Source: Actinomycetes bacterium
GTDB taxonomy: Bacteria > Actinomycetota > Actinomycetes > S36-B12
NCBI GenBank assembly: GCA_024641635.1
Contig: JAHECS010000001.1
Span: 119,845 to 183,844, forward strand
DNA: 64,000 nucleotides
Reading direction: 5' to 3'
Position 1 is the first letter of the stretch. Every line of letters starts with the position of its first letter. This document shows positions 16,857-36,573 of the stretch, piece after piece. Made by a program: the position numbers and the translations under genes. Below the pieces are notes generated by a model, which saw only the letters and a list, made by a program, of their open reading frames with translations, did not search any database and was not told the DNA's origin.

Positions 16857-16922
16857 CCGCCGAGAGGCAAGCTGTGGTCGTGTAACCGGCCACGTTCACG
16901 ACCATTGCCTGCCTCTCGGCGG
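16857..16922. repeat. REP-like palindrome, family copy A
   Basis: CCGCCGAGAGGCA (16857-16869) pairs with TGCCTCTCGGCGG (16910-16922); TGGTCGTG (16875-16882) pairs with CACGACCA (16897-16904). Confidence 0.88.
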
Positions 16923-16972: not shown

Positions 16973-17980
16973 GTGCCGAACCCGCAGCGCATCCGCGCCA
17001 CCGTCGATGCCCTGGCTGCTCTCCCCCAGCCGGTCGCGCTCGGCGATCTCCCGGGGATCGGACTCACCCGGGGCCGGACCCGATCGGCCATCGCAGCGGG
17101 CGCGCTGGTGCAGGTGCGCCGCGGCTTCGTCGTTCCGACCGACCTGTGGGAGCAGGCCGACCCACGGGCGCGGCACGACCTCAGGCTGCGCGCCGCACTA
17201 CGCGCTTATCCGGGCACATGGGCCAGCCGAGAGTCGGCGGGCCGGCTGGTAGGGCTGCCCGTCTTCGACGACGGGCCGGACGATCCCCACGTGCACATCA
17301 GCAGAAGCGGGACGACGGCGCGGGAGCCGCACGTCACGGTCCACGGCAACGAGGTGCCCGACGGATTCGTGGACACCATTGCCGGGCTACGCACGACGAA
17401 CCTCGTCCGGACCGCGGTCGAACTGTCCGCCGTTCCCTCACAGCGACGCGCGATCGCGGTCATGGATGCTGCGATGCGTCTCATGATCGCCAGCCGCGAC
17501 CCGGATGACGTGCGCGCCCGAGTCCTCGACGCAGCGGCGCGCGACCACGCACGGCACGTCCTCGATGCCGCCATCGGGCCGTACAGCCGGCATCGCTGGG
17601 TCACCAGCGTCCGGCGGGCCGTCGCATCGGCGAATCCGGCGGCGGAGTCAGTGCTCGAGTCGTTCTCACGCGTGGCCATGTGCGACGCACGGCTCCCCGA
17701 GCCGGAGTGCGGCGTCCCAGTGGTCGGCGACGATGGCCGGACCTACTGGGCGGACTTCCTGTGGCGGAGGCACCGAGTGATCGGCGAAGCAGACGGAGCG
17801 GCCAAGTATCGCCAGGTCAGCCAGCTCGTCGAGGAGAAGAGGCGTGAAGAAGCGCTTCGCGGAGCCGGTTGGACCGTGGTCCGCTGGGGTTGGCCAGAGG
17901 CCGTCACGGACCCCCAGGTGATGGTGCGACGACTGCGGGCCGCCCTCGCCGCCCCGCCGACAGGCACGCCGTGGTCGTGA
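16973..17980 (+). CDS. AbiEi-like N-terminal domain plus C-terminal DUF559/Vsr-like nuclease protein
   Basis: LVQVRRG, SRESAGRLVGLP, TTNLVRTAVEL (AbiEi-like); AESVLES, ADFLW..VIGEADG..KY, EKRREEALRGAGWTVVRW (DUF559/Vsr-like). Confidence 0.85.
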   Translation: MPNPQRIRATVDALAALPQPVALGDLPGIGLTRGRTRSAIAAGALVQVRRGFVVPTDLWEQADPRARHDLRLRAALRAYPGTWASRESAGRLVGLPVFDDGPDDPHVHISRSGTTAREPHVTVHGNEVPDGFVDTIAGLRTTNLVRTAVELSAVPSQRRAIAVMDAAMRLMIASRDPDDVRARVLDAAARDHARHVLDAAIGPYSRHRWVTSVRRAVASANPAAESVLESFSRVAMCDARLPEPECGVPVVGDDGRTYWADFLWRRHRVIGEADGAAKYRQVSQLVEEKRREEALRGAGWTVVRWGWPEAVTDPQVMVRRLRAALAAPPTGTPWS

Positions 17981-18019
17981 AGACCCCCCGTTTGACGACC
18001 ACGGCGTGCCTCTCGGCGG
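17954..18019. repeat. REP-like palindrome, family copy B (overlaps the 3' end of the nuclease gene)
   Basis: 25-bp inverted repeat with one mismatch, 17954-17978 vs 17995-18019, 16-nt loop. Confidence 0.9.
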
Positions 18020-21906: not shown

Positions 21907-21921
21907 GGCGAGACGCGACGG

Positions 21922-22365
21922 TCAGGCGGTGGCCGTATCCGGCCCGACTGCCAGCCGCGGCTTGAGCTCCAGCAGGCGCCCGAGCAGCCCGTTGACGAAC
22001 GACGACGACTCGTCTGTCGACAGATCCTGGGCCAGGGCGACGGCCTCGGCGATAGCCACCGCGTCCGGCACGTCGTCGCGCCACAGCAGCTCGTACGCAC
22101 CGATCCGCAGGATGGCGCGGTCCACGGCGGGCATGCGCTCCAGCGTCCATCCCATGGAGTAGCTCGCGAGCAGCTCGTCGATGTACGCGCGATGCGCAGT
22201 TACGCCGTCGACCACCTCAGCCACGTAGGCGTTCATCGATGCCTGGCCCTCGTCGGCGCGACGCTGCTCTGTCGCCGCAAGGACGTCAGCGGCCGCCAAG
22301 CCACGGATGTCCGCCTCGTACAGGACGTCGAGCGCCCGCTTCCGCGCCTTGCTGCGGGCGGACAT
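21922..22365 (-). CDS. nusB: Transcription antitermination factor NusB
   Basis: [33 protein letters not shown]; ATG overlaps efp stop. Confidence 0.96.
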   Translation of the reverse strand: MSARSKARKRALDVLYEADIRGLAAADVLAATEQRRADEGQASMNAYVAEVVDGVTAHRAYIDELLASYSMGWTLERMPAVDRAILRIGAYELLWRDDVPDAVAIAEAVALAQDLSTDESSSFVNGLLGRLLELKPRLAVGPDTATA

Positions 22366-22928
22366 TAGTCGTTGACGCGGCCGAGGTACGACCCGTCGCG
22401 GGTGTCCACCTTGACCTTCGTGTCGGACTCGAGGAACAGCGGCACCTGGATCTCGGCCCCCGTCTCGAGGGTGGCCGGCTTCGTGCCGCCCGTGGACCGG
22501 TCGCCCTGGAGCCCTGGCTCGGTGTACGTGACCATGAGCTCGACCGACGCCGGCAACTCGATGTAGATCGGAGCGCCTTCGTGGGTGGCGACGGTGGCGT
22601 TGTTGTTCTCGAGCAGGTACTTCGACATCTCGCCGACCACCGTCGACGGGACGTGGACCTGGTCGTAGGTCTGGGTGTCCATGAAGATCCAGTCCTCGCC
22701 GTCCTTGTAGAGGTACTGCATCTCCCGCTTGTCGACCGTGGCCGTCTCGACCTTGGTGCCTGCATTGAACGTCTTGTCGACGACCTTCCCGGTCAGCACG
22801 TTCTTCAGCTTCGTCCGCACGAACGCCCCGCCCTTGCCGGGCTTGACATGCTGGAACTCGACGACGGTCCAGAGCTGGCCGTCGAGGTTGAGGACGAGTC
22901 CGTTCTTCAGGTCGTTCGTGGTGGCCAC
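22365..22928 (-). CDS. efp: Elongation factor P
   Basis: [29 protein letters not shown]. Confidence 0.98.
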
Positions 22929-22954
22929 GTGCGGTGCTCCCAGCTGGTCGAGCG

Positions 22955-24028
22955 TCAGCCGACGACGCGCAGCCCGCGGGGAGCCTCAGTGAGGATCCGT
23001 GGACCGGCGTCGGTGACGACGAGGGTGTCTTCGATGCGAACTCCGCCTCGTCCGGGGAGGTATACCCCCGGCTCGACGGTGATCGCCATGTCGGCGTCGA
23101 TGGTACCTGTCGCCCGGGCCCCGACATTGGGCGCCTCGTGGATCTCGAGTCCCACCCCATGCCCCAGGCCGTGGGTGAACCGGTCGCCCAGACCCGCGTC
23201 CACGAGCAGGTCTCGGGCGAGGGCATCGATCCCGCGCGCGTCCGCCCCAGGCAGGTATCCCGCCGTCGCGGCCGACTGGGCGGCCAGGACCCCGGCGTGG
23301 ATCTCCGCCTGCCAGTCCTCCGGTTCCTGCCCGACCACGAAGGTTCGCGTCATGTCGGCGTGGTAGCCGTCGACCCGCGCGCCGGCGTCGACGACGACGA
23401 GATCGCCCCTCACGAGCGCGCGCTGGCCTGGCTGGTGGTGCGGGATGGCGGAGTGCGGACCCGACCCCACGATGGTGTCGAAGGCGCGGTCCTCCGCCCC
23501 GAGCTCCCCGAAGAGCTGCTCGAGTCGGCGTGCCAGCGCCAGTTCGGTGACGCCGATCCGCATCTCCCCGGCCAGCAGGTCGAGCCCCTCCACCGTGATC
23601 GCACAGGCACGGGTGAGGGCTGCTAGCTCCCCTTCGTCCTTGACGGCCCGATGGCGCTCGACGACTCCGTTCGCCACGGCCGGCAGGCCGAACGCCTGCT
23701 GGACTATGCCGGCCTGACCGACGGACATCAGGGACTCGACGGCGGGGCGCGCCGCACCCAGCGCGTCCAGGACGGCTCGGACGGTGTCACGGTCGATCAG
23801 CGTGGCCACTCCGGGCGCCTCTGCCGCCACCTGGTCGACGTACCTGCCATCCGTCCCGAGGAGGTCGTCCCCCGACTCGAGGCTCAGTGCCAGGACGGCA
23901 TTGCTGCCCGAGAAACCCGTCAGGTACCGGACATTGGGCAGGTGGGTGATGAGCAGGATCGACGCATCAAGCTCAGCCTGGGCATCTGCCCGCACCCGGT
24001 CGCGTCGGTCACGATGGAGGTCCGTCAT
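22955..24028 (-). CDS. pepQ: Xaa-Pro (M24) aminopeptidase
   Basis: [32 protein letters not shown]. Confidence 0.92.
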
Positions 24029-24468
24029 TCTGCGTTCGCCAGGAGAGCGGCAACCGCCCGCAGACCCAGCCGGTAGGAGTCCACGCCGAAGCCGGCGATC
24101 GTCCCGGTCGCGACGCCGGAGACCACCGAGGTGTGCCTGAACTCCTCGCGCGCTGCCGGGTTGGACAGGTGCACCTCGACCAGCGGGGCCGACAGCATCG
24201 CGCACGCATCGCGGAGTGCGTACGAGTAGTGGGTGAACGCGGCCGGGTTGAGGACGACGGCCGCGCCGTCGTCCTGGGCCTCGTGCAGCCAGCCGATGAG
24301 CTCCGACTCGTCGTTCGTCTGCCGCACCGTCACCGTGAGCCCCAGGGCCTGGCCGGTCGCCACGCAGTCGGCGGCCAGCTCGTCGAATGTCGTGCTCCCG
24401 TAGATGTCCGGCTCGCGGGTGCCGAGGCGGTTCAGGTTCGGTCCGTTGAGGACGTAGACGTGCGGCAT
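24025..24468 (-). CDS. aroQ: Type II 3-dehydroquinate dehydratase
   Basis: NGPNLNRLGTREPDIYG, NPAAFTHYS, EVHLSN. Confidence 0.97.
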   Translation of the reverse strand: MPHVYVLNGPNLNRLGTREPDIYGSTTFDELAADCVATGQALGLTVTVRQTNDESELIGWLHEAQDDGAAVVLNPAAFTHYSYALRDACAMLSAPLVEVHLSNPAAREEFRHTSVVSGVATGTIAGFGVDSYRLGLRAVAALLANAE

Positions 24469-24487
24469 GGCGAGGACTCTACGCGGA

Positions 24488-25585
24488 TCAGTCGCTGATC
24501 GAGGCGTACGCGGCCAGCAGGAGTGCAGGGTCCGGACCCTCCCAGATCACCGGGTGCCCGATGCCGTTGAGCACGACGAAGCGGAGGAGAGACCCACGTG
24601 CCTTCTTGTCGATGGACATGGCGCCGAGCAGGTCGTCCCAGTGGCCCGGTGCGTAGGTCGTGGGCAGGCCCAGCGCCGAGAGAACCGAGCGGTGCCGGTC
24701 GACCTCGGCCTCGGACAGCCGGCCGCCCAGCGCCGCCAGCTCGGCCACGAACATCATGCCGACGGCCACGGCCGCACCGTGGCGCCAGCGGTACCGCTCA
24801 CGCCGCTCGACGGCATGCCCGAAGGTGTGGCCGTAGTTCAGGACCTCGCGCCCGATCGACCCGTCGCCGGACGTTGCCGACGTCTCGTGGAAGTCCCTGC
24901 TCACCACGTCGGCCTTGACCTGGACGGCGCGGCGAATGAGGTCGGGAAGCAGGTCACCGGACGCATCGGTCGCGGAGAACGGGTCGCGCTCGACATCGTC
25001 GAGGATGCTGACGTCGTGGACGAAGCCCACCTTGACGACCTCCGCCATCCCGGCGAGCAGGTCGTTCCGGGGCAGGGTCTCGAGGGCGTTGATGTCGCAG
25101 AGCACGCCCCCGGGGCTCCAGAACGAGCCGACGAGGTTCTTCCCTGCAGCCGTGTTGATCCCGGTCTTGCCACCGACGGCGGCGTCGACCATCCCGAGCA
25201 GCGTGGTCGGCACCTGGATGACCCGAATCCCGCGGAGCCATGTGGCTGCCACGAAACCCGCCAGGTCGGTGGTGGCGCCACCACCCAGCCCGATGACCGA
25301 GTCGCTGCGGGTGAGTCCGGCGGTGCCGAGAACGGACCAGCAGAAGGCCGCCACCTCCGCGGTCTTCGCATCCTCCGCCTCCGGCACCTCGATGAGGGTG
25401 ACGTCGAAGCCGCCCGACCCCAGGTCATCGCGGATCGCCTCGGCCGAGGCGAGGAGGGCGCCCGGATGGATGACGGCCACCCGCTGGGAGCCGACGAGCA
25501 TCGAGGGCAGGTGGTCCAGCAGCCCTCTCCCGATGACGACCTCGTACTGCCGCTCGGCGGAGACGGCGATCACGGCGTCAGCCAT
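24488..25585 (-). CDS. aroB: 3-dehydroquinate synthase
   Basis: GGGATTDLAGF, DAAVGGKTGIN, LNYGHTFGHA. Confidence 0.97.
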   Translation of the reverse strand: MADAVIAVSAERQYEVVIGRGLLDHLPSMLVGSQRVAVIHPGALLASAEAIRDDLGSGGFDVTLIEVPEAEDAKTAEVAAFCWSVLGTAGLTRSDSVIGLGGGATTDLAGFVAATWLRGIRVIQVPTTLLGMVDAAVGGKTGINTAAGKNLVGSFWSPGGVLCDINALETLPRNDLLAGMAEVVKVGFVHDVSILDDVERDPFSATDASGDLLPDLIRRAVQVKADVVSRDFHETSATSGDGSIGREVLNYGHTFGHAVERRERYRWRHGAAVAVGMMFVAELAALGGRLSEAEVDRHRSVLSALGLPTTYAPGHWDDLLGAMSIDKKARGSLLRFVVLNGIGHPVIWEGPDPALLLAAYASISD

Positions 25586-26117
25586 CGCGCACCACCCGCA
25601 GCACGTCATCCGTTACCTCGCGCAGCGACCGGCCGCTCGTGTCGACGACATCGGTGGAGACCTGCTCGTAGATCGGAGTGCGCTGCTCGAGCAGCGTCAG
25701 CAAGGTGCCCCGAACGTTCCCGAGCAGGAGCGGTCGGGACGCGTTCATCCCGACCCGTGTGGTGGCGTCCGACAGGCTGACCCGGAGCCAGACCACCCGG
25801 CGCCCGGCGAGGCGATCACGGGTGTCCGCGCTCAGCACGGCTCCCCCACCGAGCGAGAGCACGCCGTCGTGCTCCGCCAGTGCGCGCGCCACCGCCTCAC
25901 CCTCGAGCCGGCGGAACTCATCCTCGCCCAAGGTCACGAAGATGTCCGCGACGGTCATTCCGGACGCCTCCTCGACGAGCGCGTCCGTGTCGACGAAAGG
26001 CACGTGCAGCCGGGCGGCGAGACGACGGCCCACACTCGACTTCCCGGCTCCCGGGGACCCGATGAGGACCACGACCGGGCCAGATCCAGCCCGTTCCCCA
26101 GTCTCCTTCGTGGGCAT
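25578..26117 (-). CDS. aroK: Shikimate kinase
   Basis: LIGSPGAGKSSVG, GEDEFRRLE, LGGGAV; ATG overlaps aroC stop. Confidence 0.95.
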   Translation of the reverse strand: MPTKETGERAGSGPVVVLIGSPGAGKSSVGRRLAARLHVPFVDTDALVEEASGMTVADIFVTLGEDEFRRLEGEAVARALAEHDGVLSLGGGAVLSADTRDRLAGRRVVWLRVSLSDATTRVGMNASRPLLLGNVRGTLLTLLEQRTPIYEQVSTDVVDTSGRSLREVTDDVLRVVRDG

Positions 26118-27298
26118 CAGCGGACGGTGAGGTTGTCGAGGTAGCCCTGGATGTTCCGCTGGACCTCGACGACGCTGTCTCCGCCGAACTTCTCGACGAC
26201 GGCGTCGGCAAGGACGAGCAGGACCATGGCCTCGGCGACCACTCCCGCGGCCGGGACGGCGCACACGTCTGATCGCTGGTTGATGGCGGCCGCCGCCTCG
26301 CCGGTGGCGACGTCCACCGTGCGGAGGGCCTTCGGGATCGTGGAGATCGGCTTCATCGCGGCGCGCACGCGCAGGACCTCGCCGGTGGACATCCCGCCCT
26401 CCGTGCCTCCTGACCTGCCGGAGGTCCGCTCGAGCCCGGTCGCGCCCGCGACGATCTCGTCCTGGGCCTGGGATCCGCGCACGGCCGCCAGACCGAAGCC
26501 GTCCCCCACCTCGACGCCCTTGATCGCCTGGATCCCCATGAGCGCGCCCGCGAGCCTGGAGTCGAGGCGACGATCCCAGTGCACATGGCTGCCCAGGCCC
26601 GGGGGCAGGCCGTACGCCAGTACCTCGACCACGCCGCCGAGGGTGTCGCCGTCGCGATGCGCCGCCGAGATCTCCGCCTCCATCGCCTGGGCCGCGTCCG
26701 GGTCGAGGCAGCGCACCGGGTTCTCGTCGATCGACGGAAGGTCCCCGGGGAGCGGCACCCGGGCGTCGTCGGGCACGGCGGCTGCTCCGATGCGGACGAC
26801 GTGACTGAGCACCTCGACGCCGGCCACCTGGCGGAGGAAGGCGCGGGCGACGGCGGCGAGGGCCACCCGCGCCGCGGTCTCGCGGGCACTTGCCCGCTCG
26901 AGGATCGGGCGGGCGTCGGTGAACCCGTACTTCTGCATGCCGACGAGGTCGGCGTGCCCCGGACGGGGGCGGGTCAGCGGCGCGTTGCGAGCCAGTTCCG
27001 CAAGAGCGGCGTCGTCGACCGGATCGGGCGACATGACCTGCTCCCACTTCGGCCACTCCGCGTTGCCCACCTCGATGGCGACAGGACCGCCGAGCGTGCG
27101 CCCGTGCCGGACCCCGCCGAGGATCCGCACCTCGTCGCGCTCGAACTTCATCCGGGCGCCGCGCCCCGCGCCCAGCCGACGACGAGCCAGATCGTCGGAG
27201 ATGTCCGCCGAAGTGACGGCGATGCCGGCAGGCAGGCCCTCGGCGATCGTCACGAGGGCGGGGCCATGCGACTCCCCAGCAGTCAACCAGCGCACCAT
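26117..27298 (-). CDS. aroC: Chorismate synthase
   Basis: [32 protein letters not shown]. Confidence 0.97.
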
Positions 27299-27331
27299 GC
27301 CCCGAATCCTTCCAGACGACCCGGTACGCAC

Positions 27332-28138
27332 TCAGGCCGGGAGAGCCGCCGCCATGGCCGCGACGTCGGGCTCGGACCCGGTCATCAGGCGCACCTGCTC
27401 GACCGCCTGCCACAGCAGCATGTCGCGCCCGCTCGCGACCCGGCCGCTCCCCCACGATGCGGCCAGCGGGGTCGGCCACGGGTGGTACGACGCGTCGAGC
27501 AGTACACCCCCTGCCCCGCCAGCGAGAGCCGCCCAGTCCTCAGCCGCATGCCCGGGGAGAGTGCTGATCACCACGTCAGCCCCGGCTCGAGCCGGATCAG
27601 GGTCGAGGGTCCCCACCCGTGCGCGCAGCCCCATCAGGTGGGCCAGCTCGACGACGTCGGCCGCTGCCGCGGGGCGGCGAGCGCAGACGACCAGCTCGGG
27701 CCGCCCCAGTCGGGCGAGCGCCGCCACGCCACTGCGTGCCGTCGCGCCCGCTCCGAGGAGCGTCGCCGTCCTGGGTGTCGATTCGAGCCCGCTCTCGAGG
27801 AGAGCCTGCGTCATGCCGTACACGTCGGTGTTGGTGCCCCTCCAGCCCGTTCCGGACGGGAGGACGGTGTTGACCGACCGCAGGAGTCGCGCCTCATCAT
27901 CGACGCTGAGCAGGAGCGGGATCACAGCCTGCTTGAGCGGCATCGTGAGCGAGAGGCCGGCCCACGTGGCATCGAGCCGCGCAAGGAAGCCGGGCAGGGT
28001 CTCCTCGTCCACCTCGTACGCGTCGTAGACCCAGTCGAGGCCCAGACTCGCATAGGCGGCCCGGTGAAGGGCAGGCGACAGGGAGTGGGCGATCGGTGAG
28101 CCGAGGACCCCGGCACGGGTCCGCGCTGCATCACCCAT
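27332..28138 (-). CDS. aroE: Shikimate dehydrogenase
   Basis: LGSPIAHSLSP, SLTMPLK, NTD, LGAGATA. Confidence 0.95.
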   Translation of the reverse strand: MGDAARTRAGVLGSPIAHSLSPALHRAAYASLGLDWVYDAYEVDEETLPGFLARLDATWAGLSLTMPLKQAVIPLLLSVDDEARLLRSVNTVLPSGTGWRGTNTDVYGMTQALLESGLESTPRTATLLGAGATARSGVAALARLGRPELVVCARRPAAAADVVELAHLMGLRARVGTLDPDPARAGADVVISTLPGHAAEDWAALAGGAGGVLLDASYHPWPTPLAASWGSGRVASGRDMLLWQAVEQVRLMTGSEPDVAAMAAALPA

Positions 28139-29264
28139 TCGACTGGTCGTCCTGCGCCTGCTGCTGCTCCTTCTCGTACTGGGCGAGGTTGGCCTGGAAC
28201 TCTCGCTTCAGCTCGAGGAACTTCTCGTACGACTTGGCGAACTTGGTCTCACCCGTGCGCGGGTCGACGGAGACGAAGTACAGCCACTTGCCCTTGGCCG
28301 GGTTGAGCGCAGCCTCCATCGCCGCCTCGCCGGGCGAGTTGATCGGCCGCGGAGGCAGGCCGCGCCGCACGTAGGTGTTGTACGGCGAGGAGGTGGCGAG
28401 CTGATCCTCGTTGAGCTGGATGTCGCTGATGCCCAGGGCGTACGAGACCGTCGAGTCGAGCTGGAGCGGCATGTCCGCATCGAGCCGGTTGTAGATGACG
28501 CGAGCCGCCTTGGCGAAGTCACCCGGCGTGACCTCGGCCTGGACCAGCGAGGCCACGATGAGCGCCTGGTAGGGATTGAGTCCGACGTCCTTCGCCCGCT
28601 CCTCGAGGCCGACATCGGCGCTTGCCTGGCTGAAGCGCTTCACCAGCGTTCGGAGTGTGGATCGTGCCGTCTCCTCGCCGGTGAGGTCGTACGTCGCCGG
28701 GAACATGAAGCCCTCGGGACGGTCCTTGGCCCAGTCCGGCAGCCCGAGGGACTTCGGGTTGCGCAGCACCGCCTGGAAGTCGGACTTCGGCAATGATGTC
28801 GCGTCGGCGGCGATGGCCACCGTCTGCTCCAGGCGCAGGCCCTCCGGCAGCACGAGACGGCTGTCCGCACGGGACGAGGGGTCCAGCATGAGCTCGAGAG
28901 CGTCGATCGAGTTCATCTGCCGGCGCATCGTGTACTTGCCCGGCCCGATGCTGGACGCCCGATCGTCGACAGAGGCGGCGTTGACGAAGGACGCGGCGGC
29001 GAGGACGACGCCAGCGTCCTCGAGCTTCTGGCCGATCTCGGTCAGCGTGTCCCCACTCGAGACGACGACGGTGACCTCGCCCGTGCCACCACCGGCGTAC
29101 TCGTCGGCGGTCGGCTCGGGCCCGCGCAGCAGCAGGATGGAGGCACCGATCATGGCCAGCGCCAGCCCGACCGAGATGAGGGCAGCGATGCGCTTGCCCC
29201 ACGAGCTGCGGTTACGCGAAGGAGGCAGCGGATCGGAGGACATCATGGGTGCCAGCTGGCTCAT
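28131..29264 (-). CDS. mltG: Endolytic transglycosylase MltG
   Basis: N-terminal TM helix, EGFMFPATY, ASLVQAE, PYNTY, PPRPINSPG. Confidence 0.95.
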   Translation of the reverse strand: MSQLAPMMSSDPLPPSRNRSSWGKRIAALISVGLALAMIGASILLLRGPEPTADEYAGGGTGEVTVVVSSGDTLTEIGQKLEDAGVVLAAASFVNAASVDDRASSIGPGKYTMRRQMNSIDALELMLDPSSRADSRLVLPEGLRLEQTVAIAADATSLPKSDFQAVLRNPKSLGLPDWAKDRPEGFMFPATYDLTGEETARSTLRTLVKRFSQASADVGLEERAKDVGLNPYQALIVASLVQAEVTPGDFAKAARVIYNRLDADMPLQLDSTVSYALGISDIQLNEDQLATSSPYNTYVRRGLPPRPINSPGEAAMEAALNPAKGKWLYFVSVDPRTGETKFAKSYEKFLELKREFQANLAQYEKEQQQAQDDQSNG

Positions 29265-29722
29265 TCGTTCTCCTCTCGTCTCACGAGCTCGCCCGGCGGC
29301 TCCCCTGCCCGTTGCTCGGCCTCAAGGACCGACTGCAGCACCATGACAGCAGAAGCACTGTCGATGAGGGACCGCGACTGGCGTGTCGAGCGCCCGCCGG
29401 CTCGCAGGGCGCGCTGCGCCTGCACGGTGGAGAGCCGCTCGTCCATCAGACGAACCGGCACGTCGATGCGTTCCGCCAGATCTGCTGCCCAGGACCGGAC
29501 GAGACCGGCGGACGTGCCTTCGACCCCACTCAGGTGCAGGGGCAGGCCCACGTAGACGTCGCTGGCCTCCCACTCGTTCACGAGCGCGGCCACCGCATCC
29601 ATCGACCCATCCCCCGCCCGCACAGCGTCGAGGGGAACCGCGAGGAGGCCCGAGGCATCGCTGCGGGCCACCCCGATCCGCGCGGAGCCGACATCGAGGG
29701 CGAGTCGGACCCCCGGGCGCAT
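29261..29722 (-). CDS. ruvX: Holliday junction resolvase-like / pre-16S rRNA nuclease RuvX (YqgF)
   Basis: LALDVGSARIGVA, DERLST, IDSASA. Confidence 0.95.
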   Translation of the reverse strand: MRPGVRLALDVGSARIGVARSDASGLLAVPLDAVRAGDGSMDAVAALVNEWEASDVYVGLPLHLSGVEGTSAGLVRSWAADLAERIDVPVRLMDERLSTVQAQRALRAGGRSTRQSRSLIDSASAVMVLQSVLEAEQRAGEPPGELVRREENE

Positions 29723-29726
29723 GCGG

Positions 29727-32402
29727 CTACTGCCCCGTCCGGCCGTGGATGAGCGACTCGACGGCGGCGAAGGCGGGCCCGATGCCCTCGGGGTCCGTCC
29801 CGCCACCCTGGGCGAAGTCGTCCTTGCCACCGCCCCGACCCGAGACGGCCGGAAGGGCCACCTGGAGCATGGCGTTCGCCGTGACGCCGAGGGCCACGGC
29901 CTCCGGCGAGGCACCCGTGACGATAGCGACCTTCCCGTCCGAGACGGCCGCGCCGACGAGGACCGCGGGGATGTCGGCACGACTGCGCCCCTTGGCCTTC
30001 ACCACGAGCTCGCGCAGATCACCGCCCGACGTTCCGTCCGGCGCACGGAAGGCCCACATCCGGACGGGCCCGATGTCCTTGCCCTCGCCGACGATGCCGT
30101 CGATGCTCGCGGTGAGCTGCGCACTGCGAACCTTGGCGAGATCGCGCTCCGCATCCTTGAGCGAGGCGATGGTCCGCTCGACCCGTTCCACGAGCTGGTC
30201 GGCGGGAGCCTTCACGAGCTCGGAGAGACGGGACACGAGCACGTGCTCGCGGGCGAGGAACTGGTACGCGTCAGCGCCGACGAGCGCCTCCACACGTCGT
30301 ACTCCGGCGCCGATCGAGCCCTCGGACAGGAAGGTGACGACCCCGAGCTGACCTGACCGCTGGGCATGCGTGCCACCGCAGAGCTCGTGGGCCCAGTCGC
30401 CGACAGACACCACACGGACCCGGTCGCCGTACTTCTCCCCGAACAGGGCCATGGCGCCCATGGCTCGCGCCTCGTCCTGCGTCATGGTGTGCGCGGACAC
30501 CGACAGGTCCTCGATGAGGACCTCGTTGACGTGCTGCTCCACCTCACGCAGGACGGCCGGGGCCACGGGAGCGGGGCTGGGGAAGTCGAAGCGGAGACGC
30601 CCGGGAGCGTTCTCCGAGCCCATCTGCGTCGCGGTGTCGCCCAGGCGCTCCCGGAACGCCCGGTGGATCATGTGGGTCGCCGTATGGGCGCGGGAGATGG
30701 CGCGTCGGCGCCCGGCGTCGACCTCGCTCGCGACCGTCGTGCCACTGACCAGCTCGCCGTCGATGACCTCCCCACGGTGGACGAAGAGCCCGGGCACGGG
30801 GGTCTGGACGTCGTACACGTCCACCACCGCCCCGTCGCCGCTGACCAGCCGGCCGTGATCGCCCAGCTGACCACCGGCCTCGGCGTAGAAGGGGGTGCGG
30901 TTGAGGACGATCTCGACGTGCTCACCCACGCGGGCGGCCGGAACGGTCTCGCCGTCCTTGACGATCCCGATGACCTGGGACTCGCTCACGGACTCCGTGT
31001 AGCCGGTGAAGGTCGTCGTCCCGCCCACCTGAAGGATCTCGCGGTAGGCGGTCGTCGCGGCGACCCCGCTCTTGCGCGCCTGCGAGTCGGCCTTGGCGCG
31101 CTCCCGCTGCTGCTGCATGAGCCGCCGGAAGCCCTCCTCATCAACGCTGAGTCCCTGCTCCGCAGCCATCTCGAGGGTCAGGTCGATTGGGAAGCCGTAC
31201 GTGTCGTGCAGGGCGAAGGCCTGGTCTCCCGGCAGCCTCTTCGAACCCGCCGCCCTGAGGTCGGCGACCGCCGTGTCGAAGATCGTCGTTCCGGTGCGGA
31301 GCGTCTGCAGGAAGGCAGCCTCCTCGCCGACCGCGATCTGCCGGACGCGATTGGCCTCGTCATTGAGCTCCGGGTACTGCGGGGCCATCGTCGCCACAGT
31401 CGCGTCGACGAGCTCCCTCATCGTCGCCTCGTGCGCGCCCAGGAGGCGCATCATCCGGATGGTGCGACGCATGAGCCGGCGGAGCACGTAGCCACGGCCC
31501 TCGTTCCCGGGGATCACCCCATCGCCGATGAGGAACACGCACGTCCGGGCGTGGTCGGCGACGACCCGCAGCGCGACGTCGTCGCGTTCGTTGGCCCCGT
31601 AGCGCGCGCCGCTCAGCTCGCAGGCACGATCGAGGATTCCCCTCGTCGTGTCGATCTCGTAGAGATTGTCGACCCCCTGCAGGACGGTCGCCATGCGCTC
31701 GAGACCCATGCCGGTGTCGATGTTCCTCGCCGGGAGCGGCTGCTTGATGTCGAAGTCCATCTTGGAACGCACCGCTGACAGTTCGTCCTGCATGAAGACC
31801 AGGTTCCACACCTCGAGGTAGCGATCCTCGTCGGCCTCGGGCCCACCCTCGCGCCCGTGCTCCGGACCGCGGTCGTAGTAGATCTCCGAGCAGGGGCCGC
31901 CCGGTCCCGGCACGCCCATGGACCAGTAGTTGTCCTTGGCACTGCGACGCTGGATGCGATCCAGCGGCAGGCCCACAACGCGATGCCAGATGTCCAGCGC
32001 CTCATCGTCGTCCTGGTAGACGGTGGCCCAGAGCTTCTCCTCGGGGAAGCCGTAGCCGCCGTCGGCGACCGGCTTCGTGAGCAGCTCCCAGGCGAGCGGG
32101 ATCGCCCCCTCCTTGAAGTAGTCGCCGAAGGAGAAGTTCCCGGCCATCTGGAAGAAGGAGGCATGCCGGGCGGTCTTGCCCACCTCCTCGATGTCCAGAG
32201 TGCGAACCACCTTCTGCACGCTGGTCGCGCGGGGGTAGGGCGGCGGCGCCTCTCCGAGGAAGTACGGCTTGAAGGGCACCATGCCCGCATTGACGAAGAG
32301 CAGCGTCGGGTCGTCGAGCAGCAGCGACGCCGAAGGGACCACCTGGTGCCCGCGGTCGGCGAAGTAACGAAGGAAGCGGCTACGGATCTCGGCGGAGTCC
32401 AT
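29727..32402 (-). CDS. alaS: Alanine--tRNA ligase
   Basis: LLFVNAGMVPFK, IDTGMGLER, HTATH editing motif, ELCGGTH, GGGK; start ATG 32402 or GTG 32405. Confidence 0.98.
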   Translation of the reverse strand: MDSAEIRSRFLRYFADRGHQVVPSASLLLDDPTLLFVNAGMVPFKPYFLGEAPPPYPRATSVQKVVRTLDIEEVGKTARHASFFQMAGNFSFGDYFKEGAIPLAWELLTKPVADGGYGFPEEKLWATVYQDDDEALDIWHRVVGLPLDRIQRRSAKDNYWSMGVPGPGGPCSEIYYDRGPEHGREGGPEADEDRYLEVWNLVFMQDELSAVRSKMDFDIKQPLPARNIDTGMGLERMATVLQGVDNLYEIDTTRGILDRACELSGARYGANERDDVALRVVADHARTCVFLIGDGVIPGNEGRGYVLRRLMRRTIRMMRLLGAHEATMRELVDATVATMAPQYPELNDEANRVRQIAVGEEAAFLQTLRTGTTIFDTAVADLRAAGSKRLPGDQAFALHDTYGFPIDLTLEMAAEQGLSVDEEGFRRLMQQQRERAKADSQARKSGVAATTAYREILQVGGTTTFTGYTESVSESQVIGIVKDGETVPAARVGEHVEIVLNRTPFYAEAGGQLGDHGRLVSGDGAVVDVYDVQTPVPGLFVHRGEVIDGELVSGTTVASEVDAGRRRAISRAHTATHMIHRAFRERLGDTATQMGSENAPGRLRFDFPSPAPVAPAVLREVEQHVNEVLIEDLSVSAHTMTQDEARAMGAMALFGEKYGDRVRVVSVGDWAHELCGGTHAQRSGQLGVVTFLSEGSIGAGVRRVEALVGADAYQFLAREHVLVSRLSELVKAPADQLVERVERTIASLKDAERDLAKVRSAQLTASIDGIVGEGKDIGPVRMWAFRAPDGTSGGDLRELVVKAKGRSRADIPAVLVGAAVSDGKVAIVTGASPEAVALGVTANAMLQVALPAVSGRGGGKDDFAQGGGTDPEGIGPAFAAVESLIHGRTGQ

Positions 32403-32404
32403 CA

Positions 32405-32668
32405 CTACTCCCCGTGGCCAGCGCCGCGCAGGACGCGTGCGGCCGCCGATCCCGGGGTCGCCGCCTGACGTTCGCGCGGGTCGACGGCTGATGCGGCGCC
32501 GCCCGCCATGGCGCGAGCCGCATTGAGCGCGGTCACCGCGGACAGCCCGACCTGCTGTGCGCTGAGCACCACGCCGCGCTCACGGGCATCGGCCACGGCC
32601 TGCTGGGCGCGCCGGTAGACGACGATGCCACCGGCCGCACCCACGGCGATCCAGACGATCCTTCGCAT
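32405..32668 (-). CDS. Small membrane-anchored hypothetical protein upstream of alaS
   Basis: MRRIVWIAVGAAGGIVVYRRA N-terminal anchor; stop adjoins alaS start. Confidence 0.75.
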   Translation of the reverse strand: MRRIVWIAVGAAGGIVVYRRAQQAVADARERGVVLSAQQVGLSAVTALNAARAMAGGAASAVDPRERQAATPGSAAARVLRGAGHGE

Positions 32669-32679
32669 GAGGCCCAACC

Positions 32680-34017
32680 CTAACGGTCGTCGCTTCGACG
32701 CAGCTCTCGCAGGCGGGCGTCGACGTCCGCCCACGCGGCCTCGGCCCCGTGCCTCGTCGGGTGGTAGTACACCCGGTCGACGAGCTCGTCCGGGAGGTGC
32801 TGCTGGGGGGCGACGCCGCCGGGGAGGTCGTGCGGATAGACATAGCCGGCACCGTGACCGAGGCGCCCCGCACCCGGGTAGTGCGCGTCCCGGAGGTGCG
32901 CGGGCACGCGACCGATCCCGCCGGCCCGCACGTCGGCGGTCGCCTCGCCCAGGCCGACGACGACGGCATTGGACTTCGGCGCGAGGGCAGCGTGGATCGT
33001 GGCGTGCGCGAGGATGATCCCTGCCTCGGGCATGCCCACCATCGCCACCGCCTGGGCTGCCGCCACGGCCGTCTGCAGCACGGTTGGCTCGGCCATGCCG
33101 ATGTCCTCGCTGGCCAGGATCATCAGGCGGCGCGCCACGAAGCGCGGGTCCTCCCCCGCCTCGAGCATGCGGGCGAGGTAGTGCAGCGCGGCGTCCGGAT
33201 CGCTGCCACGCACGCTCTTGATGAAGGCACTGGTGACGTCGTAGTGCTGGTCGCCGTCCTTGTCGTACAGGATGGCCGCCTGCTGGACGGCGCGCTCGGC
33301 GTCCGAGCGGGTGACGCGCACCTGCCCCTCGGGTCCGGCCACGGCCGACGCTGCCGCCGCCTCCAGGCCGGTGAGCGCCCGCCGGACGTCGCCGTTCGCC
33401 GTCCGGACGAGGTGGGCCAGCGCCTCCTCGTCGACGGCCACCGACCCACCGAGGCCGCGAGGGTCGTCGATGGCCCGCGCGAGGAGCGCCGCCACGTGCT
33501 CACTCGTCAGAGGCGACAACCGCACCATGACGCTTCGGGACATCAGGGGTGCGATGACCGAGAAGCTCGGGTTCTCCGTCGTCGCAGCGATGAGGGTGAC
33601 CCAGCCGTTCTCCACGGCCGGGAGCAGGGCGTCCTGCTGGCTCTTGCTGAACCGGTGCACCTCGTCGATGAACAGGACGGTGCCGCGTCCGTGCATGGCC
33701 AGGCCGTCCCGGGCCCGCTCGATCACCGCGCGCACATCCTTGACCCCTGCGGTGACGGCGGACAGCTCGACGAAGGACCGGCCGCTGCCCGCGGACAGGA
33801 GGGTGGCCAGCGTGGTCTTCCCGGTGCCGGGCGGCCCCCAGAGGATGACCGACACGACTGCTGCCTCGGCCGGGGCGGTGAGGAGTGTCCGCAGGGGCGA
33901 ACCCGGAGCGAGGGCGGCCTCCTGACCGACGACCTCGTCCAAGGTGCGCGGCCGCATCCGGACCGCGAGCGGCGCCGACGCCCGGGACCCGGAGAGCCCG
34001 TCGTCGAACAGCGTCAT
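32680..34017 (-). CDS. rarA: Replication-associated recombination protein A (RarA/MgsA)
   Basis: [45 protein letters not shown]. Confidence 0.96.
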
Positions 34018-34032
34018 GCCCGAACCCTACGT

Positions 34033-34108
34033 CCGCCGAGAGGCAAGCAGTGGTCGCGCCGGGGGCCCTTGGGGGCCGGTTTCACGACCACGACGTGCCT
34101 CTCGGCGG
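34033..34108. repeat. REP-like palindrome, family copy C (solo)
   Basis: CCGCCGAGAGGCA (34033-34045) pairs with TGCCTCTCGGCGG (34096-34108); inner GTGGTCG/CGACCAC arms; same arms as copies A and B. Confidence 0.88.
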
Positions 34109-34831
34109 GAGGGCGTGCGCGAGCAGGCCCGAGCGGTACCTCCCCACCTCGGTGAAGCCCAGCGCCCCGTAGGTCCTTCGGCCGGCCTCGTTCGCGACAT
34201 ACATCTCGAGAACGAGCATCGGCGCCCTCTCCTCCACCGCCGCCCGCATGATCCGCAGGCACACCTGGCGTGCCAGCCCCCGCCCCCGGTACTCCGGATC
34301 TGTGCACACGCTGACGATGTGAGCCGCTCCTGACGGCTCCCGGACCTGGGCGGCCACGGACACCAGCCGGTCATCCTCCAGGACGCCCACCCAACGCTCG
34401 AGCCGCGGATTGCCGGGGAAGATGTGGGCGGAGTCCGAGTACTCGAGAAGCGGACCGATGCGGGGGTCGTCCATCGCGAGGTCGACCGCAACGTCCGGGC
34501 CGACGACCGCCTCGGCGGGGTCCAGGGTCCAGAAGCACCAGTGGCCGGGGTCGGGACTCTGCAGGGCCACAGGCAGCAGCTCGAAGGCGTCCTCGGTGAC
34601 CGTGACTCCGTCGACCTCGTGATCGCCGGACAGTGCCTCGACCAGTTCCGCCACGACGCGCGGCTCGTCGCCCAGTCCGGTGACCCACTTCTCGCCCGGC
34701 CTCGCGGCCCGACCGAGCCAGGCAACGTTCCCCCCTTGCGCGAGGATCGCCGGGGGTTGCCGGTCGGCGACCATCCACCTGACCAGCGGGTCGTCGGGGC
34801 GGACGTCCCTCGCGTGGGTCGGCGCGCTCAC
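34082..34831 (-). CDS. GNAT family N-acetyltransferase (FR47-like C-terminal domain)
   Basis: [14 protein letters not shown] acetyl-CoA motif, [13 protein letters not shown]; start overlaps aspS stop. Confidence 0.88.
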
Positions 34832-36573
34832 TCCTCGTCGTCGGGCACGGCGTCGATGCCGGCCTCGGCGCGCTGTGCCGCGGTGATCGGGGTGGGAGCG
34901 CCGGTCAGCGGATCCTGCCCGCCGCCCGTCTTCGGGAAGGCGATGACGTCGCGGATGGACGAGGCGCCCGCGAGCAGCATGCAGATCCGGTCGAGGCCGT
35001 ACGCGATCCCGCCGTGTGGTGGCGGGCCGTACTGGAAGGCATCGAGCAGGAAGCCGAACTTCTCCTGGGCCTCGGCGCCCGAAAGCCCCAGCAGCGCGAA
35101 AACCCGCTGCTGGACGTCTCCCTGGTGGATACGCACGGATCCGCCGCCGATCTCGTTGCCGTTGCAGACGAGGTCATAGGCCCACGCGAGCGCCTCCCCG
35201 GGGGACTCCTCGAAGCGGTCGAGCCACTCGTCGTTGGGCGACGTGAACGGGTGGTGCACCGCCGTCCAGCCGAGGACGACTCCGTCCTCGACGGCCTCCT
35301 CGAACATCGGCGCGTCGATCACCCAGACGAACGACCACTGCGACTCGTCGATCAGCCCGAGCCGGCGCCCGATCTCAAGGCGCGCTGCTCCGAGCAGGGC
35401 GCGGGCATCCGAGATGCGGCCGGCCGCGAAGAACACCGCGTCTCCGGGACCGGCCCCTGCCGCGGCCGCAAGTCCCGCTCGCTCGTCGTCGCTGATGTTC
35501 TTCGCCACGGGGCCGCCCAGCGTGCCGTCCTCGCCGACGGTGACGTAGGCGAGTCCCCTCGCGCCCCGCTGCTTGGCCCACTCCTGCCACGCGTCGAACT
35601 GCTTCCGCGGCTGGTCGGCACCGCCCGGCATGACCACCGCTCCGACGTACTCGGCCTGGAACACCCGGAACGGCGTGCCGGAGAAGAACGCGGTGAGGTC
35701 GACAAGCTCGACCCCGAAGCGAAGGTCCGGCTTGTCCGTTCCGAATCGGCGCATCGCCTCGGCGTAGGTCATGTGCGGGACCTCGCCGATGTCGTAGCCC
35801 AGGATCCCCTGCCACAACGCCCTGATGACCTCTTCGCCAACCTCGATGACGTCTGCCTGCTCCACGAAGGACATCTCGATGTCGAGCTGGGTGAACTCCG
35901 GCTGGCGGTCGCCTCGGAAGTCCTCGTCGCGGTAGCACCGTGCGATCTGGAAGTACCGTTCCATGCCCGCCACCATGAGCAGCTGCTTGAACAGCTGGGG
36001 GGACTGCGGCAGCGCGTACCAGTGGCCGGGCTGGAGGCGCACCGGGACGAGGAAGTCGCGGGCTCCCTCCGGGGTGGATCGGGTGAGCGTCGGTGTCTCG
36101 ATCTCGAGGAAGTCGCGCTCGAGCAGGATGTTGCGGCAGATCTGGTTCACCCGCGAACGCATCCGGATGGCGTCACCCGCGCTCTGACGACGCAGGTCGA
36201 GGTATCGGTGCCGCAGCCGCACCTCCTCGCCCACCGTGACCCGATCGTCGATGGGGAAGGGCAGCGGAGCCGCGGTCGAGAGCACCTCGACGGCCTCCGC
36301 CATCACCTCGATCTCTCCGGTGGCCAGATCGGGGTTCTCGTTGCCCTCGGGCCGACGGCCCACCGTACCGACGACCCTGATGCAGAACTCGTCGCGAAGG
36401 GGGTGAGCCACCTCGGGATCGTGGACGACCACCTGCACCACGCCGCTCGCGTCCCGCAGGTCGAGGAAGGCGACGCCGCCATGGTCGCGTCGGCTGGCCA
36501 CCCATCCGGCGAGCGTGACCTGCTGCCCGGCGTCGGCGGACCCGAGCGAGCCTGCAGTGTGGGTGCGAATCAC
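34828..36573 (-). CDS. aspS: Aspartate--tRNA ligase (probably non-discriminating Asp/Asn)
   Basis: [40 protein letters not shown]. Confidence 0.97.

What the first reader, a model, noticed from the sequence alone, without database searches (positions are those of the whole stretch)
34033..34108. Solo third copy of the palindrome family, 16 kb from the nuclease gene
Seen: same 13-bp outer arms (CCGCCGAGAGGCA/TGCCTCTCGGCGG) and same inner GTGGTCG/CGACCAC arms as copies A and B, but a longer, different loop (about 24 nt), 76 bp in total. It lies between the GNAT gene and rarA, 3 bp from the leaderless-type -10 of rarA (TAGGGT, 34029-34024). Inference: conserved arms with variable loops are what a non-autonomous, trans-mobilised unit would look like, and it could influence read-through into rarA.
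Basis: partly seen in the sequence, partly recalled or inferred. Interest (0 to 1): 0.62.

Follow-up and report, generated by a model that had tools for sequence, protein, structure and literature searches.

The report
Solo copy of nuclease-linked hairpin repeat
The 76-base palindrome is a worn, stand-alone copy of a hairpin repeat found 29 times in this actinobacterial genome. It was inserted in this lineage only, into the end of one gene just ahead of rarA, and the family belongs to an apparently undescribed partnership between hairpin repeats and a DNA-binding nuclease.

Summary
The palindrome at 34033-34108 is real, but it is not a "third copy". The genome holds 29 copies of this family (26 of 65-66 bp, 3 of 76 bp), plus four other dispersed palindrome families.

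The focal copy is a lineage-specific insertion:
- In 13 same-genus genomes and 2 metagenome relatives the GNAT-rarA junction is empty. In those whose tail I translated (G021, G048, L214, L218), the GNAT stop overlaps the rarA start as ATGA.
- In seven other lineages the same point holds a different palindrome (four other families).
- The insert supplies GNAT's last 8 codons and its stop, and ends 3 bp from rarA's -10.
- It has the most stem mismatches of all 29 copies (8 of 30), so it is probably an old copy.

All five palindrome families of this genome bracket one gene each, five distantly related AbiEi-wHTH/Vsr-like (DUF559) nucleases. The same bracket recurs in the genus (20 of 29 loci), across Actinomycetes and in a cultured Arthrobacter. 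No RAYT is present.

Best reading: a REPIN-like repeat spread in trans by its partner nuclease at 16973-17980. The insertion and family membership are near certain; the enzyme's role is inferred. A plain conserved terminator is refuted. No transcript or read data could be obtained.

The parts
34033..34108 (.). Focal 76-bp palindrome: a solo, degenerate copy of family Fam1
   Evidence: sequence and fold; 8 stem mismatches in 30, the most of 29 copies; the orthologous site is empty in relatives.
34033..34045 (+). Left outer arm CCGCCGAGAGGCA, identical to the family consensus
34096..34108 (+). Right outer arm TGCCTCTCGGCGG, identical to the family consensus
34063..34078 (.). 16-nt central segment that marks the 76-bp subtype; it forms a 5-bp mini-hairpin
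   Evidence: Exact-arm copies in relatives G007 and G010 are all 76 bp, and so are the copies that bracket the nuclease gene in G007 and G041.
34082..34831 (-). GNAT acetyltransferase gene. Its last 8 codons (PPRGTSWS) and its stop (34082-34084) are encoded by the palindrome
   Evidence: translation; Pfam Acetyltransf_1, 9.6e-11; tails in relatives.
34024..34029 (-). Candidate -10 of rarA (TAGGGT, then 6 nt, then ATG; leaderless type). It is conserved as TAGGGT or TACGCT in relatives
   Evidence: Its function is inferred, not shown; the sigma-70 scan found nothing.
32680..34017 (-). rarA/mgsA gene, downstream of the insert
   Evidence: MgsA_C 1.2e-64, AAA.
16973..17980 (+). Partner gene: AbiEi-type wHTH plus Vsr-like (DUF559) nuclease. 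Its ORF also stops at the TGA inside a Fam1 copy
   Evidence: AF2 model with pLDDT 93.9; fold hits to AbiEi (1ZEL, 6Y8Q) and to I-Bth0305I and Vsr.
16857..16922 (.). Fam1 copy A, the left bracket of the nuclease gene (6 stem mismatches)
17954..18019 (.). Fam1 copy B, the right bracket of the nuclease gene (4 stem mismatches)

Best explanation
The element is a solo, ageing member of a mobile hairpin-repeat family, Fam1. The consensus is a 30-bp arm, CCGCCGAGAGGCACGCTGTGGTCGTGAAAC, then a 4-6 nt centre, then the reverse complement of the arm. The genome has 29 copies.

In the lineage of this species it was inserted into the last codons of the GNAT gene, directly 5' of the -10 of rarA.

Shown:
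- It belongs to the family.
- It is an insertion, because the orthologous site is empty in relatives.
- It replaced GNAT's last codons (5 in the nearest empty-site relatives) with 8 of its own plus a TGA.
- It replaced the GNAT stop/rarA start overlap (ATGA) seen at the translated empty sites with a 64-nt gap that holds a hairpin of about -60 kcal/mol.

Inferred:
- The family is spread in trans by the single-copy gene at 16973-17980, which is itself bracketed by two Fam1 copies.
- That protein has an AbiEi-like winged-helix domain, which would bind the invariant outer arms, and a Vsr/I-Bth0305I-like nuclease domain, which would nick or cut the extruded hairpin or cruciform.
- Host repair or replication would then complete the copying.

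The logic is that of REPIN/RAYT systems: one vertically inherited enzyme gene per repeat family, and repeats that multiply on their own. The enzyme, however, is unrelated to RAYTs.

As side effects the insert probably lowers read-through and translational coupling from GNAT into rarA, leaving rarA on its own leaderless promoter.
For: Family and structure:
- 29 copies.
- In the 25 65/66-bp copies aligned, 97.5% of stem cells pair. Eight pairs show changes on both sides (32 cells), a value reached by 0 of 500 shuffles.

Insertion:
- The junction is empty (25-44 bp) in G021, G048, G012, G015, G016, G002, G043, G003, G018, G008, G046 and G045, in G041 and in L214 and L218.
- It is filled at the same point by other palindromes in G047, G007, G006, G020, L215, L216 and L217. 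With Fam1 that makes five families.

Link to the nuclease:
- Five of five de novo palindrome families in this genome bracket one of the five nuclease homologues, and each family has solo copies: 29, 27, 14 plus arrays, 11 and 4-5 copies.
- 20 of 29 nuclease loci in the genus, and at least 14 of 29 from other Actinomycetes families, show a same-sequence palindrome pair about 1.05 kb apart.
- The junction palindromes of G047, G006 and G020 match the brackets of a nuclease gene elsewhere in the same genome.
- Bracket palindromes of G047 and G020 have 6 to more than 20 dispersed solos; one G020 family has only one further copy.

The gene stays put while the solos move:
- The Fam1 nuclease sits at the same livF-SBP site in G000, G007, G041 and G015.
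- Its brackets are degenerate, whereas most solos are near-identical.
- There is no second copy and no pseudogene remnant of any nuclease.
- The family is almost absent from plasmids.

Protein:
- The E..D..E.DG motif is invariant.
- The fold combines AbiEi with a Vsr/I-Bth0305I-type domain.

No RAYT gene is present.
Against: - No experiment or read data show movement.
- A PD-(D/E)xK/Vsr-type hydrolase can cut DNA but cannot by itself join strands, so the 'paste' step has no assigned enzyme.
- No target-site duplication is visible.
- The cognate nuclease for the G007 junction palindrome was not found.
- 3 of 29 genus loci and about 6 of 29 class-level loci show no bracket at all.
- G003 has a solo Fam1-like palindrome exactly where other species carry the whole gene unit. 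That fits loss by recombination rather than trans-mobilisation.
- AbiEi domains are known as repressors that bind inverted repeats, so the brackets could be operators only.
- The effect on rarA expression is untested.
Confidence: 0.6

Rival explanations
1. Solo-LTR-like scar. The mobile thing is the whole 1.15-kb cassette (palindrome, nuclease gene, palindrome). Each solo palindrome, including the focal one, is what remains after recombination between the two bracket copies deleted the gene.
For: - The two brackets are direct as well as inverted repeats of each other, so recombination between them would leave exactly one copy (sequence logic).
- G003 has a solo Fam1-related palindrome at the livF-SBP site, where G000, G007, G041 and G015 carry the full cassette. 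The G003 nuclease of that clade sits elsewhere.
- One class-level genome (G197) shows two equal-scoring copies of the gene.
Against: - Each of the five families in this genome has exactly one gene.
- There are no nuclease fragments near any of the roughly 80 solos.
- The resident brackets are the most degenerate copies, while the solos are near-identical, so the solos are younger than the only cassette.
- The cassette is syntenic in four species.
- This model needs 27 cassette insertions, each followed by a clean deletion, for Fam1 alone.
Confidence: 0.15
2. Protein-binding sites only. The palindromes are operators or chromosomal binding sites for the AbiEi-type domain (autoregulation at the brackets, other roles at solos). 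They were dispersed by some other route, and the nuclease domain serves an unrelated function such as repair or defence.
For: - The N-terminal domain matches AbiEi antitoxins, which are known to bind inverted repeats in their own promoters (established knowledge of AbiEi).
- Bracket copy A ends 51 bp upstream of the nuclease start.
- The outer 13 bp are invariant in nearly all copies.
Against: - It does not explain how 29 near-identical 66-bp sequences reached unrelated gene ends.
- It does not explain why five families hit one junction in different lineages.
- Positions that vary freely between copies still pair within each copy, right up to the loop. That points to base pairing or fold-back copying, not only to symmetric protein contacts.
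- The nuclease motif is invariant.
Confidence: 0.12
3. Plain conserved transcription terminator, or a 3'-end stabiliser of the GNAT mRNA that arose in place.
For: - It is a strong GC-rich hairpin.
- Most family members lie 0-55 bp after a stop codon, and many lie between convergent genes.
Against: - There is no U-tract.
- It is absent at the orthologous site in 13 genus genomes and 2 metagenome relatives, and is replaced there by unrelated palindromes in others.
- 28 further copies exist elsewhere in the genome.
- A true conserved terminator, 18040-18073, is present at its site in all 12 genus genomes whose livF-SBP junction was read, which shows what in-place conservation looks like here.
- A secondary terminator role after insertion remains possible, and it is compatible with the best explanation.
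Confidence: 0.03

Closest known systems
REP/REPIN-RAYT systems (REPtrons) of Proteobacteria
   Same: - Dispersed extragenic palindromes that form long hairpins with compensatory changes.
- Several families per genome.
- One distinct, single-copy, chromosomally inherited enzyme gene per family, flanked by its own repeats.
- Repeats sit mostly at gene 3' ends.
(REPIN features as described in PMC3116915. Here.)
   Different: - The associated gene is not a Y1 (IS200/IS605-like) transposase. PF01797 is absent from the genome.
- The gene is instead an AbiEi-wHTH plus Vsr-like PD-(D/E)xK-type nuclease, which cannot form the covalent intermediates of Y1 transposition.
- The unit is one continuous, near-perfect 30-bp-arm palindrome, not two short REP hairpins in inverted order.
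- The host is a high-GC actinomycete.
MITEs (miniature inverted-repeat transposable elements, such as Correia or RPE-type elements) that insert at or into gene ends
   Same: - Short, non-coding and multi-copy.
- Terminal inverted repeats.
- Insertion polymorphism between relatives.
- Can extend or terminate ORFs; here the element gives 8 codons and a stop to GNAT and to the nuclease gene.
   Different: - No target-site duplication is seen.
- No parent IS with a DDE transposase carries the same ends. The only bracketed gene is the nuclease.
- The whole element is a palindrome rather than a pair of TIRs around unrelated DNA.
AbiEi antitoxins (Rv2827c, S. agalactiae AbiEi) and free-standing Vsr-like homing endonucleases (I-Bth0305I)
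   Same: - The N-terminal fold and the PADLOC/Pfam AbiEi hits.
- The C-terminal nuclease fold: TM 0.74 to 3R3P, plus Vsr and PvuRts1I.
   Different: - There is no AbiEii toxin partner in the 1.16-kb unit.
- It is not in a phage, intron or intein.
- It is bracketed by full palindromes that also occur as dozens of solos.

Membership tests
REP/REPIN-RAYT system | Dispersed extragenic palindromic repeats that form hairpins, with compensatory changes | tested here: met
   29 copies. 97.5% of stem cells pair, and 8 pairs show changes on both sides (0 of 500 shuffles reach this).
REP/REPIN-RAYT system | One distinct single-copy enzyme gene per repeat family, flanked by that family's repeats | tested here: met
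   Five of five families bracket one of five nuclease homologues. There are no extra copies.
REP/REPIN-RAYT system | The enzyme is a RAYT, a Y1 tyrosine transposase (Pfam Y1_Tnp, PF01797) | tested here: not met
   No PF01797 match in the 96.9%-complete genome; the controls matched in 6 of 14 genomes. The bracketed gene is AbiEi plus DUF559.
REP/REPIN-RAYT system | Conserved GTAG (or CGTC) tetranucleotide at the REP 5' end (recalled from the REP literature, not from a tool) | tested here: not met
   Fam1 starts CCGCCGAG, Fam2 (T)CGTTGAG and Fam3 CGCGAGTG. None carries a GTAG tag.
MITE | Target-site duplication flanking the element | tested here: not met
   The flanks of 29 copies show no direct repeat. 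They are C-rich on the left and G-rich on the right, so they extend the stem. Comparing filled and empty sites leaves at most 2-3 nt ambiguous.
MITE | A parent autonomous IS with the same ends that encodes a transposase | tested here: not met
   The only gene between Fam1 ends is the nuclease.
Intrinsic terminator | GC-rich hairpin followed by a U-tract | tested here: not met
   The scan of 33700-34500 found none. The 3' flank on the RNA strand is ACGUAGGGUUCGGGC.
Intrinsic terminator | Conserved in place at the orthologous junction | tested here: not met
   The site is empty in 13 genus genomes and 2 metagenome loci.
AbiE (AbiEi/AbiEii) toxin-antitoxin system | AbiEi-type N-terminal winged-helix domain | tested here: met
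   PADLOC AbiEi, 1.6e-6, residues 30-193. Fold hits 1ZEL and 6Y8Q. Homologues carry PF13338 and PF09407.
AbiE (AbiEi/AbiEii) toxin-antitoxin system | Adjacent AbiEii nucleotidyltransferase toxin gene | tested here: not met
   The unit holds one ORF, between livF and the SBP gene.
Vsr-like / DUF559 nuclease fold (partner protein) | Conserved acidic catalytic motif and Vsr-like fold | tested here: met
   PF04480, 5e-6. 3HRL, 1.3e-5. Invariant E225/E229, D261, E272 and D274. 3R3P at TM 0.74. Catalysis itself was not tested.

The most novel reading that the evidence does not exclude
The very common actinobacterial 'AbiEi/DUF559' orphan genes (found in 210 of 251 sampled Actinomycetes genomes) are the enzyme half of a class-wide, REPIN-like replicator system. 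Each nuclease maintains and spreads its own population of 55-85 bp hairpin repeats. The repeats insert at gene ends, often donating a stop codon. This would be a second, independent invention of the 'one domesticated enzyme, one repeat population' arrangement, built on a hydrolytic nuclease instead of a Y1 transposase.
Probability: 0.5. Interest if true: 0.85.

Novelty: new variant of a known kind. Interest (0 to 1): 0.7.

Why it matters
- REP/REPIN-RAYT systems are the only well-described case of short repeats that persist vertically with a dedicated single-copy enzyme. They are known mainly from Proteobacteria.
- Here the same genomic logic appears in high-GC actinomycetes with an unrelated enzyme. 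Its family is annotated only as 'AbiEi antitoxin domain' or 'DUF559' and is present in most Actinomycetes sampled.
- The focal copy supplies something the bracketed gene cannot: direct evidence of insertion. Relatives have empty sites, and one junction was hit by five families in at least eight lineages.
- It also shows a cost to the host. A gene tail was rewritten, and an overlapping gene pair upstream of the replication-associated gene rarA was split by a strong hairpin.
- If the nuclease does move the repeats, that would give a function to a large orphan family. It would also reveal a route to DNA mobility that relies on a hydrolytic nuclease plus host repair.
- A cultured Arthrobacter with the same arrangement makes the idea testable.

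Tried and rejected
- Rfam scan of 16000-36000: only a tRNA and spurious mir-3150 hits on copy B. No known RNA family.
- RAYT search: none found.
- Pattern scan of genome contigs with CCGCCGAGAGGCANNNNNNGGTCG: too loose, mostly single chance hits in unrelated phyla. Its one use was to name two same-genus MAGs, 'Ca. Nanopelagicales bacterium Tobar13.5m-G2' and 'Actinomycetes bacterium ELA605'.
- Arm-alone matches in the window at 25548 and 60318: both lie in coding sequence, and the count of arm matches at up to 2 mismatches is not above chance (12 against 7.9 expected). Only the paired full copies are meaningful.
- Sigma-70 and U-tract scans of the junction: nothing found.
- Exact-protein look-up of rarA: not on record.
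- Metagenome scan with GNAT: the nearest relatives are only 62-71% identical, so no strain-level polymorphism could be seen.
- Plasmid searches: the nuclease is essentially absent from plasmids.
- Literature searches found no description of this association. Terms tried: DUF559 with palindromic; DUF559 with AbiEi; DUF559 alone; REP with RAYT and Actinobacteria; REPINs with Actinobacteria; AbiEi with endonuclease, inverted repeats and Mycobacterium.
- I considered whether the C14-to-A change in the left arm creates a -35 for rarA. The spacing, 11 nt, is wrong, so I dropped the idea.

Full report
**Observation**

Window 34033-34108 is a 76-bp palindrome.
- The outer arms are perfect 13-mers: CCGCCGAGAGGCA and TGCCTCTCGGCGG.
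- The inner arms are GTGGTCG and CGACCAC.
- As RNA it folds at -60.4 kcal/mol (+ strand) or -62.9 (- strand), far below shuffled controls.

Two details need correction.
- The GNAT ORF (34082-34831, - strand; Acetyltransf_1 9.6e-11) does not end before the element. It reads 27 nt into it and ends ...[15 protein letters not shown], with the TGA at 34082-34084.
- The copy is not one of three.

**The family**

The whole assembly is 3.06 Mb in 82 contigs, 69.5% GC. The window is C57:119845-183844.

It holds 29 full copies. Twenty-six are 65-66 bp and three are 76 bp, including the focal one. The consensus is a 30-nt arm, CCGCCGAGAGGCACGCTGTGGTCGTGAAAC, then a variable 4-6 nt centre, then the reverse complement of the arm.

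In an alignment of 25 of the 65/66-bp copies, one search gives:
- 97.5% of stem cells pair.
- Eight stem positions show changes on both sides (32 cells). Examples are U-A, C-G and A-U at position 17, and whole inner blocks such as GCTGC/GCAGC.
- None of 500 shuffles reaches these values.

Positions that differ freely between copies therefore stay complementary within each copy. That points to base pairing or fold-back copying, not only to a symmetric protein site.

Most copies lie 0-55 bp after a stop codon. At least ten lie between convergent genes, and eight abut a stop codon exactly. No target-site duplication is visible. The flanks tend to be C-rich on the left and G-rich on the right.

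Rfam has no matching family.

**The focal copy is an old, lineage-specific insertion**

It has 8 mismatches between its two 30-nt arms, the most of all 29 copies. The two copies that bracket the nuclease gene have 6 and 4, and most solos have 0-2. Its outer 13 bp and its GTGGTCG blocks are still intact.

The 76-bp form is the only form found for exact-arm copies in the related genomes G007 and G010. The copies that bracket the nuclease gene in G007 and G041 are also 76 bp. The 66-bp copies therefore look like a later burst in this genome.

The state of the orthologous GNAT-rarA junction in relatives:
- **Empty (25-44 bp):** G021, G048, G012, G015, G016, G002, G043, G003, G018, G008, G046 and G045. 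G041 is also empty, although G041 carries a Fam1-like family. The metagenome loci L214 and L218 are empty too.
- **At the empty sites I translated** (G021, G048, L214, L218), GNAT ends ...ALPTLQP* or similar, and its TGA overlaps the rarA ATG as ATGA. In G046 GNAT stops 24 nt earlier.
- **Filled with other palindromes at the same point:**
  - G047: CGTTGAGTGCGG..., GNAT tail ALPPR*.
  - G007 and G006: GATGCCTCGTCACTCGTGG...
  - G020: CGCGAGTGGGCACTTGTCGGGG...
  - L215 and L217: CCGACCTTGAGG..., tail ALPPRRP*.
  - L216: a Fam1 relative, tail ALPPRRPEVS*.

Counting Fam1, five families have entered this one junction in at least eight lineages. Where the boundary can be placed, the insert follows the GNAT codons ...GCC CTN (or the GNAT stop), and it always lies directly 5' of the conserved TAGGGT or TACGCT, which is followed by 6 nt and the ATG.

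For contrast, the hairpin at 18040-18073 next to the SBP gene is present, nearly unchanged, in all 12 genus genomes whose livF-SBP junction I read. That is how a terminator conserved in place looks in this genus. The focal element does not behave like that. It also has no U-tract.

**Link to the nuclease**

A de novo scan for long palindromes found five dispersed families in this genome.

| Family | Arm sequence starts | Copies |
|---|---|---|
| Fam1 | CCGCCGAGAGGCA | 29 |
| Fam2 | CGTTGAGTGCGGGGTTGTTGGG | 27 |
| Fam3 | CGCGAGTGGTCACTGCGCGCA | 14, plus about 30 half-sites in arrays |
| Fam4 | CCGACCTTGAGGTTGGCGCC | 11, plus half-sites |
| Fam5 | ATCCTGCAGCTGCCGTCACAA | 4-5 |

A profile of the window's DUF559 protein and its relatives finds exactly five genes in the genome. 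Each is bracketed by a different one of the five families:
- Window 16973-17980: Fam1 copies A and B.
- C61:33533-34525: Fam2.
- C61:132452-134107: inverted arrays of Fam3 half-sites.
- C28:14073-15161: Fam4.
- C35:99021-100280: Fam5.

The two complete proteins I compared share only 30% identity, and only over the C-terminal 110 residues. tblastn finds no further copies or fragments near any solo.

The arrangement is general:
- In the genus, 31 of 33 genomes have 1-6 such genes. Of 29 loci read, 20 show a same-sequence palindrome pair about 1.0-1.05 kb apart around the ORF, six show one palindrome (three of these at contig ends) and three show none.
- In the class, 210 of 251 sampled Actinomycetes genomes have 1 to 9 or more homologues. 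At least 14 of 29 loci from other families show the bracket.

**A prediction that held**

If the junction palindromes are nuclease-linked, each should match the brackets of a nuclease gene elsewhere in its own genome. This held for G047 (L204), G006 (L209) and G020 (L211). For G007 no cognate gene was found.

In G047 and G020 the bracket palindromes also have dispersed solos: at least 20, 10 and 6 in G047, and at least 8 and 20 in G020, where a third family has only one further copy.

A cultured example exists. In Arthrobacter sp. StoSoilB13 a homologue (NZ_AP024649.1 546127-547026) is bracketed by a 57-nt palindrome 1049 bp apart, and further copies lie on another replicon.

**The gene stays while the solos move**

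- The Fam1-type nuclease lies at the same livF-SBP junction in G000, G007 and G041, with Fam1-like 76-bp brackets. It is also there in G015, where both the protein (72% identity) and the brackets have diverged together.
- The family is essentially absent from 72,556 plasmid records.
- No RAYT (PF01797) is present.

**The protein**

- Pfam gives weak DUF559 and REase_MTES_1575 hits at the C-terminus.
- Homologues carry AbiEi_4, AbiEi_1 and DUF559. Sources name them 'AbiEi family antitoxin domain-containing', 'DUF559 domain-containing' or 'very-short-patch-repair endonuclease'.
- PADLOC hits AbiEi at residues 30-193. No AbiEii partner exists in the one-gene unit.
- An AlphaFold2 model (pLDDT 93.9, pTM 0.90) matches AbiEi antitoxins (1ZEL Rv2827c, 6Y8Q) through its N-terminal part. 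Its C-terminal part matches the I-Bth0305I homing-endonuclease catalytic domain (3R3P, TM 0.74), Vsr and PvuRts1I/AbaSI.
- The acidic motif (E225/E229, D261, E272, D274) is invariant in 35 homologues.

**Interpretation**

Shown:
- The focal element belongs to a multi-copy family.
- It is an insertion specific to this lineage.
- It rewrote the GNAT tail and supplied its stop codon.
- It separated a gene pair that overlaps (ATGA) in the empty-site relatives whose tails I read.
- Families of this kind map one-to-one onto bracketed nuclease genes.

Inferred:
- The nuclease binds the invariant outer arms through its winged-helix domain and cuts hairpin or cruciform DNA, so that copies spread in trans.
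- The hairpin lowers read-through and coupling into rarA, which would then rely on its own TAGGGT-N6-ATG promoter.

The logic matches REPIN/RAYT systems as described in PMC3116915: symmetric hairpins, compensatory changes, and single-copy, family-specific enzyme genes flanked by the repeats. The defining enzyme is absent, so this is not a member of that family.

**Weak points**
- A hydrolytic nuclease cannot join DNA by itself.
- There is no target-site duplication.
- G003 has a solo Fam1-related palindrome exactly where four species have the full cassette. Some solos may therefore be recombination scars.

**Earlier notes of this scan**

Two earlier notes reached the same reading for the bracketed gene and for the donated stop codons. 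I re-derived both independently here.

**Verdict**

The element is a new variant of the REP/REPIN kind, with an unrelated partner enzyme.

Noticed in passing
window 18040-18073: Hairpin CTGTGGGGGCCGTCCCGAAGGACGGCCCCCACAG next to the SBP gene. It is conserved almost unchanged in all 12 genus genomes whose livF-SBP junction I read. It looks like a genuine terminator conserved in place, and it is a useful contrast to the mobile palindromes.
   Followed up: partly
G000 C61:133485-133616 and 134070-134175 (outside the window): The third nuclease homologue is flanked by tandem arrays rather than single palindromes: 5 direct copies of a 27-nt Fam3 half-site on the left and 4 inverted copies on the right. 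The gene itself contains a 100-N gap.
   Followed up: partly
G000 C68:3749-3814, 5148-5212, 6727-6792 and C55:53657-53722, 54060-54125: Clusters of Fam1 solos: three copies 1.3-1.5 kb apart on C68, and two copies 337 bp apart on C55. No nuclease remnant lies between them. The reason for the clustering is unknown.
   Followed up: partly
L015 (G004), L017 (G001), L022 (G042); L031 (G020): Some relatives carry an extra gene of about 600 bp between GNAT and rarA. In G004, G001 and G042 it looks HAD-hydrolase-like from its translation, with apparent frame breaks in G004 and G001. In G020 it is a TPR-like gene. I did not run either against Pfam.
   Followed up: no
L168 (G003), livF-SBP junction: A solo Fam1-related palindrome (CCGCCGAGACGACCCGAGGGGTCGTGAAAA...) sits where G000, G007, G041 and G015 carry the whole nuclease cassette. 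It is preceded by three direct CCGCCACCACCCC repeats. This may be a scar left by loss of the cassette.
   Followed up: partly
L161 (G021), L169 (G006), L145 (G022): A further, shorter palindrome type (for example GTTTGTCCCGG-ATA-CCGGGACAAAC and GTGCCGTTTCTCCCGCG...) occurs at the livF-SBP junction of G021 and G006. It also brackets a weakly related nuclease homologue in G022.
   Followed up: no
L219 (Arthrobacter sp. StoSoilB13, NZ_AP024649.1 545973-546029 and 547022-547078): A cultured Arthrobacter carries the same arrangement: a homologue bracketed by a 57-nt palindrome, with further copies on a second large replicon (NZ_AP024648.1). Neither replicon record has any annotation at these sites.
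   Followed up: partly
G197 C4:821842-822729 and C7:732-1619: Two nuclease homologues in one genome have identical score and length. They may be a recent duplication of a cassette or an assembly duplicate.
   Followed up: no
window 20233-20306: A tRNA gene (Rfam RF00005, 53 bits), 2.2 kb downstream of the nuclease cassette.
   Followed up: no
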